From Octopus vulgaris (taxonomy: Eukaryota), in the NCBI GenBank assembly GCA_951406725.2, contig OX597821.1, forward strand, positions 31,248,001 through 31,312,000: a stretch of DNA of 64,000 bases, given 5' to 3'. Below, piece by piece: positions 10,111 through 61,776 of this stretch. The notes beneath the pieces are model-generated. The model was not told the origin of the DNA and searched no databases. It was given only the letters and a program-made list of their open reading frames with translations. A program made the position numbers and the translations under genes. Position 1 is the first letter of the stretch, and every line of letters begins with the position of its first letter.

Positions 10111-10635
10111 GTAAATAAATGGAGACGAACGCATGTTATTTAAATTTTTTACTTCCGACATATGTTTCGAAGACAACCTTGGTTTTATTCCAAAGGAATA
10201 AACGGTGTGAAATAATGTAATCTTCTCATCAGGAAAGAAATAGAACCCATCTCAGCAGCAAGACAATATAACACTTTTGATGGCTGCATAAATGATGAAC
10301 AGAAAGCTATTAAGTTTTTTAAAATAATCGTTAGTAGATCTGACGCAAAAAGGTAGACCATAGTAAGAGTAGGGTTAAAGAAATAATAAGTAGAGATTAT
10401 AATATTTTACACCTTTTTCTTCTGGAATAAAACCAATGTTGTCTTCGAAACATATGTGGAAAGTAAAACAATTTGAATAACATCTGCGTTCAACTTCATT
10501 TATTTATTTATAATATACAAACTACTGCAACATAATCTGGAGCTGCATCCTTGTTACTTGCGTTAATTTTGCTACCCTGTTAAATGTTTATTGAATTTTC
10601 CGTGTTAACTGTAAACAAAGGATAATTCATTCATC
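10111..10635. mobile_element. Fold-back Penelope-type pseudo-LTR with hammerhead ribozyme
   Basis: Inverted arms at about 10111-10220 and 10395-10508. Homologous to 1177-1513. Embedded between TA runs. Confidence 0.7.
10152..10237 (-). ncRNA. Type I hammerhead ribozyme
   Basis: Minus strand: ctttc-CTGATGA-gaaga...tcttc-GAAA-catatg-TC-ggaag. Stem I, stem II and a palindromic stem III are present; GUC cleavage triplet. Confidence 0.8.
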
Positions 10636-10707
10636 TCTCTCTCTCTCTCTCTCTCTCTCTTATATATATATATATATATATATATATATATATATATATA
10701 TATATAT

Positions 10708-10855
10708 AGGGAGAGTTTAGGAAGAACACTAAGACGAAGACAGGTGGTGTGCAAAACAAACAGATTTATTAGTATAACGCTCAGGAATAGAAAAAGACGT
10801 TTACGTTTCGAGCCTACCCTCTTCTACAGAAAGGGACACAAAAAACAAGGAGGGA
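10708..10855 (-). mobile_element. PLE-terminus-like repeat with a degenerate hammerhead
   Basis: Minus strand ...tgTAGAAGA-gggtaggctc-GAAA-cg-TA...; the CUGA core is mutated. Confidence 0.45.
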
Positions 10856-11809
10856 AATATGTGTGTGTGTTTGTGTGTGCGTATATATATATACATACAT
10901 ATATATATATATATATATATATATATATATATATATATATATATATATATATATATATATATATATATATATATATATATATATATAACATATAAATTGG
11001 ACGTGGGCGATCGTTGTATTCTTTCTTGTCTTGAGGTTTACAGCTACACGGCGTAAAAAAACGGCACACACGTGGAGATGGTGCATAGATTGGTTTGTAT
11101 TTTTTTCCTACTCCTCACTTTTCTAATGGAATTCCCGTGTTCCGCCATTAAAACAACCAGTAACTCCCATGGCCGGCATATGCCATTTCGCTAGCAACAA
11201 GGGGAGCACAGGATAACAATCAGCCAAAACTTTCGCAATGCTGTCTTTCTTCTTTCACCTTTTTTGGGGGTTAATAATCTTAATCTTTAGATACAGTTTC
11301 TCATTCAAACTACATAATATGCAGAATTGTCGGATTAAAACAGTAGGGAGAGTTGGCTGCTATTTCTACCATGTAGATGTCTGAACTAAATTTTAATTCA
11401 CATATTTGCATCTTAAAAATTTAACATTATCTTTTCCATAAATCAACTATCGTAAAAATTTTATACGATGATCAAACACATACGACGTATGCACCCCCTC
11501 CCACATGTCCATTTCATATATCTTCATCCAATTTCTGCTCTCTACACACATAAAAGCTGTCCGGATACAAATGCTTACAAAAATAGGGATTAATGTGTAA
11601 TTTCTTTCTATGTTCATAATTAAATCAATGTTTTAATGATTACACAGAGGTACAATACAATAGCTGTCCTAAACAGACTACTTAAAATTCGCAACTCCCG
11701 AAGCTGTTTTCTGACAGGGGAGCGTTCAGGAAATTTTCATACCGCTGGAGGCTCCGATCGAAATACGGGACCCGAAATGATAATGTCGAGAATCACTGTT
11801 ATGGATTAT

Positions 11810-13211
11810 GCCTAACCGAAAACAATCACAGCCACATCATCGAAACCGGGTGAAATCGAATCTTAGCTGATAGTTACTGTATTGAAAGTGTTTTGCGTAG
11901 GATGTGTGCAGAGCACAGTAGTGCACTTTTCTGTATGTTATATATATGTGTAAGTCCTAGTATTTTGTTATGTATTTGTCTGAATACTTTTTATCATACC
12001 TAACTGTGATAGAAATTGTTTCTGATTTTAGATTCCACATCCGAGTTACCTCTATTTTCAGGATTTTGTATCTTGAAATTTCCTCCATTTCTTTTAGAGG
12101 CGCATTGTGACCTACTGGTATTGATATATCAATTAGAAAGCGTTGTTTTCCTTCATGATCTCTGATAACTATATCTGGCCTATTGGTCTTAATTTCTCTA
12201 TCTCTGTGTATTGGCATATCCCAGAGTATGGCTGCTTTCTCGTTTTCTATGACCTTTTCTTGTGTGTGCCTATACCATCTTTTTTCTGTTGTTATTCCAT
12301 AGTGTTGGCATAGATTCCAGTGTATGTAGGTCCCAAACCTGTCATGTCTGTGAATATATTCCTTCTTAGCAAGGACTGGGCAGCCAGAGATAATATGATT
12401 TATTGTTTCTTGTCCATTTCCACATATTCTGCACTTACTTGTTATGTTTCTTTTCATTATATGTTTTTGGTAATTTCTGGTGGGGAGGTTTTGGTCTTGT
12501 GGTGCAATTAAAAATCCTTCTGTCTCTGCTTTGGGTCCTGAGCTTTCAACCATTGCTGGGCTTTTTCTCTGTCTATTTCTTTTGCATTTAGTTTAGTCCG
12601 GTATTTGCCATAAAGGGGCTTTTCTTGCCATCGTTTTATCATGGTCCGTGGCTGTTCTAGTTTTAATTTTGATTTCATTTGTTTTATAGCTTTTGTTTCT
12701 TCTTCTTCTTCTTCTTCTTCTTCTTCTTCTTCTTCTTCTTCTTCTTCTTCTTCTTCTTCTTCTTCTTCTTCTTCTTCTTCTTCTTCTTCTTCTTCTTATT
12801 CTTCTTCTATTCTTCTTCTTCTTCTTCTTCTTCTTCTTCTTCTTCTTCTTCTTCTCTGCCAAGAATTCACAACATCGAACCAACAAAAGTACACAAGAGA
12901 GACAGAGACAAGCCGCTATTTGTATCACTTTTCCTTGCCTCTGAAGTAGATATTTTTGCAGTCTTATAGTGGTTATTTTATAATAGGTCTCCAGCTGTAT
13001 AAGGCCTCTACCACTTTCTATATGTTGTATATATAGCCTTTCTATGTCAGATTTACGGTGGTGCATCCTAGATCCTATCATCAATTTTCTTATTTTCCAG
13101 TCTATTTTGTTAGTTCATTTAGTGTCCAGTTAAGGATATTGTAGCTGTAAATTATAACTGGGACAGCTAAAGTGTTTATACCTATTACATTGTTTCTAGC
13201 ATTGAGCTCTG
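11810..13211 (-). mobile_element. 5'-truncated R4/Dong-like (RLE-clade) non-LTR retrotransposon, frameshifted
   Basis: ORF 11957-12553 has ETEGFLIAPQDQ, the CCHC knuckle CRICGNGQETINHIISGC, RHD and the restriction-like endonuclease motif NRPDIVI..FLIDISIP. Upstream HRKSDIERLYI..GRGL matches the RT C-terminus. Confidence 0.88.
12697..12915 (-). mobile_element. Short (GAA)n-tailed retroposed element, copy 2, nested in the R4/Dong-like LINE
   Basis: Interrupts the LINE reading frame after ...KVIQIAA. Homologous to 8848-9022. Confidence 0.7.
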
Positions 13212-13423
13212 TTATTATTATTATTATTATGGTCTTCTAATTTTTCGTTGTAATTGGGAGACTTATATAAGCATGTAGCTACACGTGCCTATAGTTGTTA
13301 CACATCAGGACAACAAGATTATATCTATTGTATAATCTATTATATCTAGTGTGTGTGTGTGTATATATATATATATATATATATATATATATATATATAT
13401 AATTATGTATATATAATTAAGGG

Positions 13424-59776: not shown

Positions 59777-61339
59777 CAGTGGGGGGAGAAATAAATATTC
59801 GTAAATGTCAAAAGTCTTTATTTATTTAATTTCTAATAAACATAAATGGGATATACCAAAACTATATTTGCGTACACATGTATAAACTAAGAATATGCAA
59901 AGGAAACTAATAAATTATAGTGAATAAGGAATTTATATTCAATTATAAATATTTAAATATTTAGGGATGAAAAAGTATTCGTACGGAACATAAATAAAGA
60001 TAATTCTGATTCAATATTTCGTAGCATAACTATTATTCAATTCTACTTCAACCAATTTCTTCTTGTAGTTCTTAATCAATGACACGCATGTTTCGTTATG
60101 AATTTTTTCCCACTATTCTTGACAAATTTTCTTCAAATCTGCAATGCACGTTGGGGCTCTTCAATGAATTTTATTTTTCAAATAACGCCACAAATTTTCA
60201 ATGGGGTCCAAGTCAGGTGACTTGCTTGGCCATTCTAATAATTTTATATTGTGAACGACAATCCATTTTTTGGTACGCTTCGCGTGTGCTTAGGGTCGTT
60301 ATCCTTTTGTAAAACCCACCTTCACAAATCTAGAGCTTTTCTACAGAGTCCCATAAATTATTGTTCAGAATATTTTGGTACATCTCTGCATTCATTCTAC
60401 CATCTATCACATGTAAATTGCCAGTAACATTTGCAGAGAAGCACCCCCACACCATGATGTTGCCACCTCCAAACTTTACGGTATATGTCTATGCGAATTT
60501 CGTCCAAACGATTCAATGTTCGACTCATTTGTCCATAGAGCTTTTTTCCAGAATGTATCAGATTTATCTTTATATTCATAAACAAATTTTAAACGGGCAT
60601 CTCTATGCATTTTAGTCAACAGCGGAGTTTTTCTAGGAGAGCGTGACTTCAGTTCATTCCAATGAATGTCATTGCTGATTGTTCACAGTGTAACGCTAGT
60701 CCCTGAAGCTAACAAATCTTGCAACTCCTTTCTGGTGATCGTTGCGTTTTTTTTAATTCGATTCTTCGCTTCATTTTTCTTAAAGATCTAGGAGAAATCT
60801 TGAGTGGTACACCGGATCTTATTCTGCTTTCAACAGTCCCCCGATTTTTTATATCTTTGAATAAATGAAGATATGGTAGGAAATGGAATACAAAGGGTCT
60901 CTGATATTTTCCTGTAACAGTTACCTCGTTTCCACTGTTCAATACTTAAGATTTTCACTGAATTTTTGAGTTCTTTACTTTTCGCCATTATTACGATACT
61001 ACTTTATGTTGTCACAGTGCTGAATGAAGAAGATAGTGTTTTGACACTTAAAAATGACAACTGATAAAATTGTTGGAAGAAACGAAAAAGTTCTAGTAAA
61101 AAAAAAAAATTAACAATATTTTATGGCATAGAAAATCATAAATTTATTCTTTACGAATACTTTTTTCACACCTAAATATTTATAATTGTATTAGTTACTA
61201 TAATTTATTAGTTTCTTTTGCATATTCTTAGTTTATGCATGTGTATGCAAATATAGTATTGGTATATCCCATTTATGCTCATTAGGAATTAAATAAATAG
61301 AGACTTTTGACATGTTCGAATATTTATTTCCCTCAACTG
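59777..61339 (-). mobile_element. Tc1-family DNA transposon with about 210-bp TIRs and a decayed transposase
   Basis: TA|cagtgg...ctg|TA. Long TIRs at 59777-59985 and 61150-61339. Confidence 0.92.
60010..60990 (-). pseudogene. Tc1 transposase pseudogene
   Basis: [59 protein letters not shown], with stops and frameshifts. Confidence 0.92.
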
Positions 61340-61376
61340 TATATATATATATATATATATGTGTGTGTGTGTGTGT

Positions 61377-61625
61377 GGTGGAGGTTCGTGGCTTAGTGGT
61401 TAGGGTGTCAGCATCATGATCGTAAGATTGCGGTTTCGATTCCTGGACCGGGCGACGCGTTGTGTTCTTGAGCAAAACACTTCATTTCACGTTGCTCCAG
61501 TCCACTCAGCTGGCAAAAATGAGTAGTGCTGCGATGGGGTGGTGCCCCTTCCAGCTGCGGAACTCATACGCCATAGAAACGGGGAAACCGGGCCCATGAG
61601 CCTGGCTAGGCTTTAAAAGGGCGCA
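61377..61625 (+). mobile_element. tRNA-derived SINE, family B
   Basis: gtggcttagtggttagg (A box), ggtttcgattcc (B box) and core cttgagcaaaacacttcatttcacgttgctccagtccactcagctggc. Confidence 0.88.
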
Positions 61626-61684
61626 TATATTATTATATATATATATATATATACGCGAGAAAGAAGCAACAAGAATGGATAAGT

Positions 61685-61776
61685 TTTTAGTACAATCGTT
61701 TCATACAAAGACAGGCTTTATTAAAAGGTTGCAAAAATTGCAGCATATAAACGTGTCCCGTACTCATCAGCTAAAA
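61685..61776 (-). ncRNA. Type I hammerhead ribozyme in the PLE 3' terminus
   Basis: ttttag-CTGATGA-gtacgggaca...tgtctttgtat-GAAA-cgattg-TA-ctaaaa. Confidence 0.8.

What the first reader, a model, noticed from the sequence alone, without database searches (positions are those of the whole stretch)
10152..61776. Six intact-core hammerhead ribozyme motifs from five unrelated families in 64 kb
Seen: intact CUGANGA/GAAA/UH cores with pairing stems at 10152-10237(-), 23444-23494(-), 26759-26809(+), 35045-35133(-), 35555-35604(-) and 61685-61776(-). Degenerate or half copies lie at 1177-1320, ~10800, ~21815, 42341 and 54661. Stems differ completely between families while pairing is kept. All four PLEs here with a recognisable 3' terminus carry one. 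Established: PLE pseudo-LTRs carry minimal type I hammerheads. Inference: if this density is typical, the genome holds a very large, diverse and probably unannotated ribozyme set that could cleave intronic pre-mRNA. Most copies are on the minus strand, which could reflect selection against sense-oriented ribozymes in a plus-strand transcript.
Basis: partly seen in the sequence, partly recalled or inferred. Interest (0 to 1): 0.75.

Follow-up and report, generated by a model that had tools for sequence, protein, structure and literature searches.

The report
Hammerhead-tipped Penelope retroelement ends
The six self-cutting-RNA (hammerhead) motifs are real, but they are the ends of five insertions of known kinds of jumping elements, which likely use the motif to cut their own RNA for copying rather than to cut host messages; this octopus-like genome is estimated to hold about 60,000 such motifs, and this window is about four times richer than average.

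Summary
All six type I hammerhead motifs are present as stated (6 hits against 0.06 expected in shuffles). They come from five insertions, not six: sites 2 and 3 are the inverted arms of one copy. The families are not unrelated. Sites 1, 2/3, 4 and 6 end four families of Hydra-clade Penelope-like elements (PLEs), a clade already recorded with a hammerhead in Octopus. Site 5 is a 355-nt non-coding tandem unit, a non-LTR retrozyme. In two families the sequence behind the predicted cut is the element's own 5' UTR, as expected if the ribozyme cuts tandem precursors to unit length. A 1-Mb sample gives 23 intact-core motifs per Mb (about 60,000 in 2.8 Gb), so this window is about fourfold enriched, not typical. 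I found no host exon in 283 kb and no significant strand bias. Most motifs look dimer-dependent, so cutting of intronic pre-mRNA is unsupported. Cleavage is untested. The scan found the same system before on other DNA of this genome. Minor points of interest: long stem II, family-wide core substitutions (A6U, A9C, U4C), and a PLE-type short/long end pattern in the retrozyme.

The parts
10152..10237 (-). Site 1: type I hammerhead, 57-nt stem II arm, palindromic stem III ACAUAUGU, predicted cut after C at 10157; end of a Hydra-clade PLE family
   Evidence: family 2404 first-look candidates, best 40 about 90% identical; upstream GIY-YIG and RT in L081
10102..10396 (-). Minus arm (short end) of the two-armed insertion that carries site 1
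10394..10633 (+). Inverted arm (long end) of the same insertion; its hammerhead lacks CUGAUGA
23444..23494 (-). Site 2: hammerhead with U.U at the base of stem II and a G-to-U change that breaks the fourth pair of stem III; 3' end (long end) of a young Hydra-clade PLE
23358..26577 (-). 5'-truncated body of that PLE: about 3 kb of microsatellite-rich 3' UTR and the end of the GIY-YIG domain (26380-26574)
   Evidence: 97% identical to the L323 protein
26578..26826 (+). Inverted arm (short end) of the same insertion, holding site 3
   Evidence: 249 nt, 97% complementary to 23427-23675
26759..26809 (+). Site 3: hammerhead with 4-bp stem III; the best monomer candidate in the window, but a 3' hairpin competes for the cut site
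   Evidence: 1.7 kcal/mol above the minimum-energy fold; family 998 candidates, best 40 99-100% identical
35045..35133 (-). Site 4: intact core, 61-nt stem II arm damaged at its base; end of an older Hydra-type PLE family
   Evidence: 257 candidates, 82-87% identity; L327 RT and EN between inverted ends
34947..35273 (.). Two-armed insertion that carries site 4 (minus arm to about 35184, short inverted piece without a core beyond it)
35554..35605 (-). Site 5: hammerhead with 9-bp stem I and palindromic stem III ACAUGCAUGU, predicted cut after C at 35563
35397..35847 (-). 1.3 units of a 355-nt non-coding tandem repeat (non-LTR retrozyme) between (TA)n and (TC)n(TA)n
   Evidence: (2335 candidates)
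61685..61776 (-). Site 6: hammerhead with 61-nt stem II arm at the 3' end (short end) of a near full-length, very young Hydra-clade PLE
   Evidence: 1767 candidates, best 40 98-100% identical
61650..64000 (-). 3' part of that PLE: 1.6-kb 3' UTR and GIY-YIG frame 63283-63897. The RT frame and the inverted arm with a seventh, intact plus-strand hammerhead lie beyond the window (G000:C8, window-equivalent 63887-66796). RT and EN are in different frames in this copy
1170..1536 (.). Second two-armed copy of the site-1 family; both hammerheads lack CUGAUGA
10710..10880 (-). Copy of an abundant ~200-nt non-coding element whose hammerhead-like core reads CUGUNGA (A6U) throughout the family
21660..21826 (-). 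Half copy of a sister retrozyme family (3' half of the hammerhead and the shared AGGACACAG block)
42345..42380 (-). Broken minimal hammerhead at the 3' end of a decayed PLE with a CX4CxxC linker (42.8-45.1 kb)
54560..54720 (-). Hammerhead-like end with CUGAUGC core (A9C, family-wide) of a PLE whose GIY-YIG lies at 55253-55558

Best explanation
The six motifs are the terminal hammerheads of five retroelement insertions into TA microsatellites (four Hydra-clade Penelope-like element families and one non-coding 355-nt retrozyme), and they likely serve the elements' own copying by cutting tandem precursor RNA into unit-length pieces. Shown: the motifs; their place at element ends; the PLE proteins upstream; the head-to-head two-armed insertions with one short and one long end; and that in two families the sequence behind the cut site is the element's own 5' UTR. 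Inferred: two motifs in one tandem transcript pair through their palindromic stem III and cut. The unit RNA, possibly ligated to a circle, is then copied by the PLE reverse transcriptase from two fixed points 3' of the cut site, across the ribozyme junction. The retrozyme is inferred to borrow the same enzyme. Most dispersed single copies are predicted to be weak or silent, and a read-through transcript of a two-armed copy would pair the sense motif with its antisense arm.
For: Motifs far above chance. Hydra diagnostics in the linked proteins, against the definition in PMC8557442 section 11: C-terminal GIY-YIG; RWK in family 6 and RWR in family 2/3; DKT in both; CxCX5C linker, CxxC and CxH in both. 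Hydra-1_Obim, with a hammerhead and a (TA)n target, is listed for Octopus bimaculoides. Hammerhead-tail-5'UTR-ATG order: of 12 loci from the 5' ORF search, 9 carry the hammerhead about 320 nt upstream of the query, with the ATG about 137 nt behind the cut. In family 6 the long tail overlaps the 5' UTR by 65 nt. One short plus one long end in 14 of 15 two-armed retrozyme insertions with both ends at a canonical place (21 two-armed of 51 unique; 6 had a non-canonical end), in 6 of 7 family-2/3 loci, and in 9 of 10 family-6 loci (the tenth is complex). Retrozyme copies of up to 2.1 units with no shared coding flank among the 60 loci examined. Stems covary in the retrozyme superfamily: 95% of cells paired, 7 of 13 pairs with two-sided changes, and slid controls 13-46%. 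Stem III is self-complementary in sites 1 and 5 (8/8, 10/10) and largely so in sites 4 and 6. Published minimal PLE hammerheads were inactive as monomers and weakly active as dimers (PMC4209133).
Against: No cleavage, circle or RNA end was observed. Insertions end 3' of the cut site, which fits a circular template but equally an uncleaved tandem transcript. The hammerhead fold is not the minimum-energy fold for any of the six (1.7-8.4 kcal/mol above it; folding z-scores from -1.7 to +1.3). Very abundant families carry fixed core changes (A6U in 28 of 28 copies), which suggests that fast cleavage is not always needed. The covariation test does not correct for relatedness, and most two-sided changes come from a few sister-family rows. 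No autonomous partner of the retrozyme was found. The clade of families 1 and 4 rests on protein similarity (27-42%) to families 2/3 and 6 in frameshifted copies, not on a tree.
Confidence: 0.82

Rival explanations
1. The hammerheads are passengers. The elements are copied from uncleaved read-through transcripts of tandem copies, and the motif is weakly active or dispensable.
For: Both insertion ends lie 3' of the cut site. Families with A6U, A9C or U4C cores reached about 5-18 copies per Mb. Naiad PLEs spread without canonical hammerheads, and the authors raise the idea that hammerheads merely parasitise PLEs (PMC8557442). Only one of nine Xenopus retrozyme dimers cut in vitro (preprint 10.64898/2026.07.22.740005).
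Against: The core and the pairing are kept across families that share no detectable nucleotide similarity (17 clusters among 29 motifs). Position N7 varies while its neighbours do not. Stems show two-sided changes.
Confidence: 0.13
2. One reading: the motifs cut host pre-mRNA when they lie in the sense orientation, so selection leaves mostly antisense copies in an intron of a plus-strand gene here.
For: 5 of 6 motifs are on the minus strand. Unpaired family ends in the window are 6 minus and 1 plus (p=0.125 by hand). The region from -10 to +80 kb is mostly T-rich on the plus strand. Retrozymes are under-represented in Xenopus introns (no strand test reported there).
Against: No host exon was found in 283 kb. 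Two-armed insertions occupy both strands. Ends of different families within one 10-kb stretch were on the same strand in 10 pairs and on opposite strands in 16. One site-1-family copy with an intact core sits in the sense orientation about 0.6 kb from a dynein heavy-chain exon (L084; a single case). Stem III is of the dimer type.
Confidence: 0.04
3. The motifs are chance matches in AT-rich repeat DNA.
For: CUGANGA occurs 24 times in the window, and the overall folding energies are unremarkable.
Against: 6 observed against 0.06 expected, maximum 1 in 300 shuffles. Each motif is conserved across a repeat family at an element end.
Confidence: 0.01

Closest known systems
Hydra clade of C-terminal-endonuclease Penelope-like elements, including Hydra-1_Obim (Craig et al. 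2021, PMC8557442; read: passages, section 11, part 2 of the supplement and search hits in it)
   Same: RT followed by GIY-YIG, DKT, RWK/RWR, CxCX5C linker, CxxC and CxH, (TA)n targets, 5' truncation, inverted 5' copy, tail at one end only, and a type I hammerhead near the 3' end. The CUGAAGAU...UGAAA pattern with a 4-bp stem III at sites 2/3 matches listed Hydra motifs.
   Different: Several families with hundreds to thousands of candidates, two of them 98-100% identical among their best copies. 3' UTRs of 1.6-3 kb (published Hydra elements are generally under 3 kb in total). Tails of about 55-120 nt rather than 30-40. Stem II arms of 57-61 nt in three families, whereas the listed Hydra motifs have loops of 3-10 nt. 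None of the six motifs equals the listed Hydra-1_oBim hammerhead.
Minimal type I hammerheads of metazoan PLEs (Cervera and De la Pena 2014, PMC4209133; read: parts 1-2 of 4 of the main text, no supplement)
   Same: Thousands per genome, high sequence diversity between families, mostly single truncated copies, pairs on opposite strands, palindromic stem III, predicted dimer activity, and the proposed cut-and-circularise role.
   Different: Much longer stem II in about a quarter of sampled motifs (6 of 23 above 30 nt). The estimated number is higher than the 2,000-9,000 reported there, but the descriptors differ.
Animal non-LTR retrozymes (Cervera and de la Pena 2020, PMC7229834, read: passages and section 14; Li, Clavereau and Pollet 2026 preprint 10.64898/2026.07.22.740005, read: parts 1-3 of 5, supplements not seen)
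   Same: Non-coding tandem unit of 355 nt (mussel 350-390 bp) with one type I hammerhead, highly self-paired when folded as a circle (65% paired), and proposed dependence on PLEs.
   Different: Cephalopods are not mentioned in PMC7229834. Copies here are dispersed 0.6-2.1-unit insertions with PLE-type inverted arms and two fixed 3' ends. GC is 46%, against under 45% stated there. Circular RNA is not shown here.

Membership tests
Type I hammerhead ribozyme | CUGANGA, GAAA and UH core around three stems, stem I open | tested here: met
   site 4 has only 2 of 4 pairs at the base of stem II
Type I hammerhead ribozyme | Compensatory changes in the stems | tested here: met
   for the site-5 superfamily (66 rows); relatedness not corrected; not run for the other families
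Type I hammerhead ribozyme | Self-cleavage 3' of H17 | not testable with these tools
   needs in vitro transcription
Hydra-clade PLE | RT with C-terminal GIY-YIG | tested here: met
   for families 1 (L081), 2/3 (L323), 4 (L327) and 6 (L091); Pfam GIY-YIG below its cut-off
Hydra-clade PLE | DKT and RWK motifs | tested here: met
   family 6 RWK and DKT; family 2/3 RWR and DKT; these regions were not reached in families 1 and 4
Hydra-clade PLE | CxCX5C linker, CxxC and CxH in the endonuclease | tested here: met
   for families 2/3 and 6; CxxC and CxH seen in decayed form in families 1 and 4
Hydra-clade PLE | (TA)n targets, 5' truncation, inverted 5' copy, tail at one end | tested here: met
Hydra-clade PLE | Placement inside the clade on an RT tree | not tested
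   reference sequences were seen only as cut excerpts in a supplement and were not used in any computation
Non-LTR retrozyme | Short non-coding tandem unit with one type I hammerhead per unit | tested here: met
   355-nt unit; two motifs 355 nt apart in L032, L036, L044 and L051
Non-LTR retrozyme | No linked protein gene (non-autonomous) | tested here: met
   no shared coding flank in 60 loci; the one shared flank (L158, L165) was 65 nt of the 3' end of an unrelated element; only the best-scoring copies were examined
Non-LTR retrozyme | Expressed as circular RNA | tested here: inconclusive
   only contigs of runs guessed to be RNA were available; joints going back 354-356 nt fit tandem DNA as well as circles

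The most novel reading that the evidence does not exclude
This genome is one of the richest natural libraries of hammerhead variants: about 60,000 intact-core and about 260,000 hammerhead-family ends. It includes long-armed type I motifs and very successful families whose catalytic core is fixed at 'forbidden' bases (A6U, A9C, U4C). Its retrozymes and PLEs share a one-short-one-long end signature that records two priming sites of the PLE reverse transcriptase on a ribozyme-closed RNA circle.
Probability: 0.35. Interest if true: 0.5.

Novelty: new member of a known kind. Interest (0 to 1): 0.27.

Why it matters
The class is known: hammerheads at PLE ends and in retrozymes are in print, including one Octopus Hydra element. 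What this genome adds is scale and test material. Young, near-identical families allow the still unproven cut-and-circularise model of PLE copying to be tested directly. The retrozyme's PLE-type insertion ends add anatomical support to a dependence so far argued from sequence similarity and co-occurrence. The family-wide core substitutions test whether cleavage is needed at all. A recent curated Octopus vulgaris repeat annotation (PMC13282606; part 1 of 3 read, whole text searched) does not contain the words ribozyme, hammerhead or retrozyme. My searches for hammerhead with Octopus or cephalopod returned only PMC8557442 and a twister-ribozyme paper (listing only). The set is therefore probably unannotated, but the library lacks most subscription journals and I did not see the supplements of PMC4209133, PMC7229834 or the preprint.

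Tried and rejected
Rfam scan of the window: the 150 rows shown were almost all microsatellite-driven miRNA matches, with no hammerhead family among them. A relaxed scan allowing one core mismatch gave one extra, unconvincing hit (57413-57462). The CUGAUGA...GAAA at 34105 (minus) lies in what reads by eye as a decayed Tc1 transposase on the plus strand, so I took it as chance. The CUGAUGA motifs at 1566 and 49296 had no relatives in the 1-Mb sample and were not followed further. I first read the endonucleases as Naiad-type; this was rejected because the GIY-YIG is C-terminal and the motifs are those of Hydra. I considered the 249-nt arms as terminal inverted repeats of a DNA transposon; this was rejected because the sequence between them is a PLE 3' UTR and endonuclease end. 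Expression: no RNA holder was listed. Contigs of four runs guessed to be RNA hold the retrozyme family, with a dip around the hammerhead and joints going back one unit; contigs cannot show ends, strand or level, so I count this as no evidence. RNA coverage of the window for a host transcript was not obtained. A test of strand bias inside known genes was set up (gene bodies located), but the intronic DNA was not obtained. Mining the loci already held gave 6 Pfam-supported host frames (5 loci) among 50 hand-picked candidates, too few for a test. An autonomous partner of the retrozyme was sought through shared flanks and the AAGGACACAG block and was not found. A literature search on intronic antisense bias of hammerheads (listing only) returned nothing specific.

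
Full report
Observation. The six motifs are at the stated places. A descriptor for type I hammerheads returns these six and nothing else in the window. 300 dinucleotide shuffles give 0.06 hits on average and never more than one. Rfam's 150 best of 278 matches held no hammerhead family. The window is G000:C8:31248001-31312000 of a 2.8-Gb assembly. 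I call it octopus-like from its repeat content and from earlier notes of the scan; I did not identify it.

Sites 2 and 3. They are the arms of one 249-nt inverted repeat, 97% complementary and 2.9 kb apart, with the ribozyme 3' ends pointing outward. Between them lie a microsatellite-rich 3' UTR and the last 65 codons of a GIY-YIG endonuclease, 97% identical to the end of a 680-aa open RT-EN frame in L323. The family has 998 first-look candidates, and the best 40 are 99-100% identical.

Site 6. It ends a near full-length PLE that runs out of the window. Its inverted arm, 99.8% identical over 415 nt and with a seventh intact hammerhead on the plus strand, lies 2.6 kb beyond the window end.

Sites 1 and 4. 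Both end older families (2404 and 257 candidates; about 90% and 85% identity). Longer copies carry related RT and endonuclease sequence (L081, L327; 27-42% identity to the proteins of families 2/3 and 6). Both window copies are two-armed, and the second arm has lost the core.

Clade. The proteins of families 2/3 and 6 show DKT, RWK or RWR, a CxCX5C linker, CxxC and CxH, the marks of the Hydra clade in PMC8557442. That paper's supplement lists Hydra-1_Obim from Octopus bimaculoides with a hammerhead and a (TA)n target. I did not build a tree.

Site 5. This one is different: 1.3 units of a 355-nt non-coding repeat with 2335 candidates. The 60 loci examined (51 unique insertions) hold 0.6-2.1 units, several with two hammerheads 355 nt apart, and share no coding flank. 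Folded as a circle, the unit is 65% paired. In an alignment of 66 copies, including four rows from sister families, 95% of cells pair and 7 of 13 pairs show two-sided changes; the slid controls pair at 13-46%. This fits the non-LTR retrozymes of PMC7229834 (mussel units 350-390 bp). A 2026 preprint argues from homology and co-occurrence that such elements derive from PLEs.

Mechanism: what is shown. In family 2/3, 9 of 12 loci found with the 5' part of the ORF carry the hammerhead just upstream, followed by the same tail that ends insertions and then the ATG about 137 nt behind the predicted cut. In family 6 the long tail overlaps the ORF's 5' UTR by 65 nt. The element is thus circularly permuted around the ribozyme. 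Insertions end at two fixed places 3' of the cut. It holds in 14 of 15 two-armed retrozyme insertions with canonical ends (6 further two-armed ones had another end), in 6 of 7 family-2/3 loci and in 9 of 10 family-6 loci. PMC8557442 describes a tail at one end only as a PLE feature, so the retrozyme carries the PLE insertion signature.

Mechanism: what is inferred. Tandem transcripts are likely cut by dimeric hammerheads, the unit may close to a circle, and the PLE enzyme copies it across the junction, as proposed in PMC4209133. Stem III is a perfect palindrome in sites 1 and 5 and nearly so in sites 4 and 6. Against an easy reading: none of the six folds as a hammerhead at minimum energy; an uncleaved tandem template explains the ends as well as a circle does; and abundant families have fixed core substitutions.

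Density. One hundred evenly spaced 10-kb stretches from 27 contigs hold 23 intact-core motifs (bootstrap 13-34; shuffles 0-3). That gives about 60,000 genome-wide, with a range of roughly 33,000-92,000 after subtracting the background. The window, with 6 against 1.5 expected, lies in the upper tail (p about 0.004-0.008). Its 219 kb of flanks are also rich, with 12 hits. Counting degenerate and partial family ends gives 92 per Mb. Six of 23 sampled motifs have more than 30 nt between the core halves. Published counts are about 4,000 and 9,000 in coelacanth and Xenopus, about 5,000 in mussel and about 120,000 in the 28-Gb axolotl genome, with other descriptors.

Strand bias and host RNA. No host exon was recognised in 283 kb: 143, 150 and 65 candidate frames gave only transposon domains above noise. 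Frames under 45 codons, low-scoring frames and exons without a Pfam domain would be missed. Four of the five insertions are two-armed. Family ends are 10 minus and 4 plus in the window, 33 and 20 in the region, and 46 and 46 in the genome sample. Neighbouring ends of different families were on the same strand in 10 pairs and on opposite strands in 16. Intact cores in the blind sample split 16 to 7 by chance. A mild local minus excess is not excluded (unpaired ends 6 to 1 in the window). One intact sense copy sits beside a dynein heavy-chain exon. The proper test needs a gene annotation and remains open.

Verdict. This is a real and well-formed set of hammerheads, explained by known Penelope-like element and retrozyme biology. 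It is new mainly as a count, as specific families, and for a few variant features worth a bench test. Interest 0.27.

Noticed in passing
window 10710-10880 (-); 18 BLAST hits in 13 of the 100 sampled 10-kb stretches: Abundant ~200-nt non-coding element in TA microsatellites whose hammerhead-like core has U at position 6 in 28 of 28 copies while position 7 varies (A, U, C). An A6C variant was reported as slow (PMC3088659, passages); A6U was not found with hammerheads, apart from one twister paper seen as a listing only.
   Followed up: partly
window 5868-6109 (+) and many loci: Sister mini-element family with a UCC loop II; the core reads CCGACGA (U4C) in 13 of 18 copies. The window copy seems to lack the hammerhead part.
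   Followed up: partly
window 54560-54720 (-): PLE family with CUGAUGC (A9C) in the window and in 4 of 4 sampled copies that cover the core, one of which also has C3U; about 5 copies per Mb.
   Followed up: partly
L202, L203, L241, L304, L225, window 21660-21826: At least three further retrozyme families of roughly 360-nt units share the blocks GGGGGUG and AAGGACACAG with site 5, and their hammerhead stems are compensated.
   Followed up: partly
window-equivalent -47712 to -46205, 103917-105019, 170581-172155 (L192, L199, L204, L205): Further tandem and inverted long-stem-II hammerhead arrays with spacings of about 470-535 nt near the window.
   Followed up: no
L084 (G000:C20:20887007-20890198): Intact-core site-1-family hammerhead in the sense orientation about 0.6 kb upstream of a dynein heavy-chain exon.
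   Followed up: partly
window 26804-26822 (+) and 23431-23449 (-): A hairpin (UGUAGAAG/CUUCUAUA) just 3' of the family-2/3 cut site competes with stem I, and the short insertion ends fall right behind it.
   Followed up: no
window 11960-13114 (-), 16839-17116 (+), 60479-60682 (-), 46000-47500; L205:1751-6401 (-): Decayed non-LTR retrotransposon pieces, a Tc1 transposase piece, a GC-richer stretch that reads by eye like a LINE ORF1, and a Helitron with a 1292-aa frame about 100 kb beyond the window.
   Followed up: no
283-kb region around the window: AT skew is mostly positive left of about -10 kb and mostly negative from -10 to +80 kb; cause unknown.
   Followed up: no
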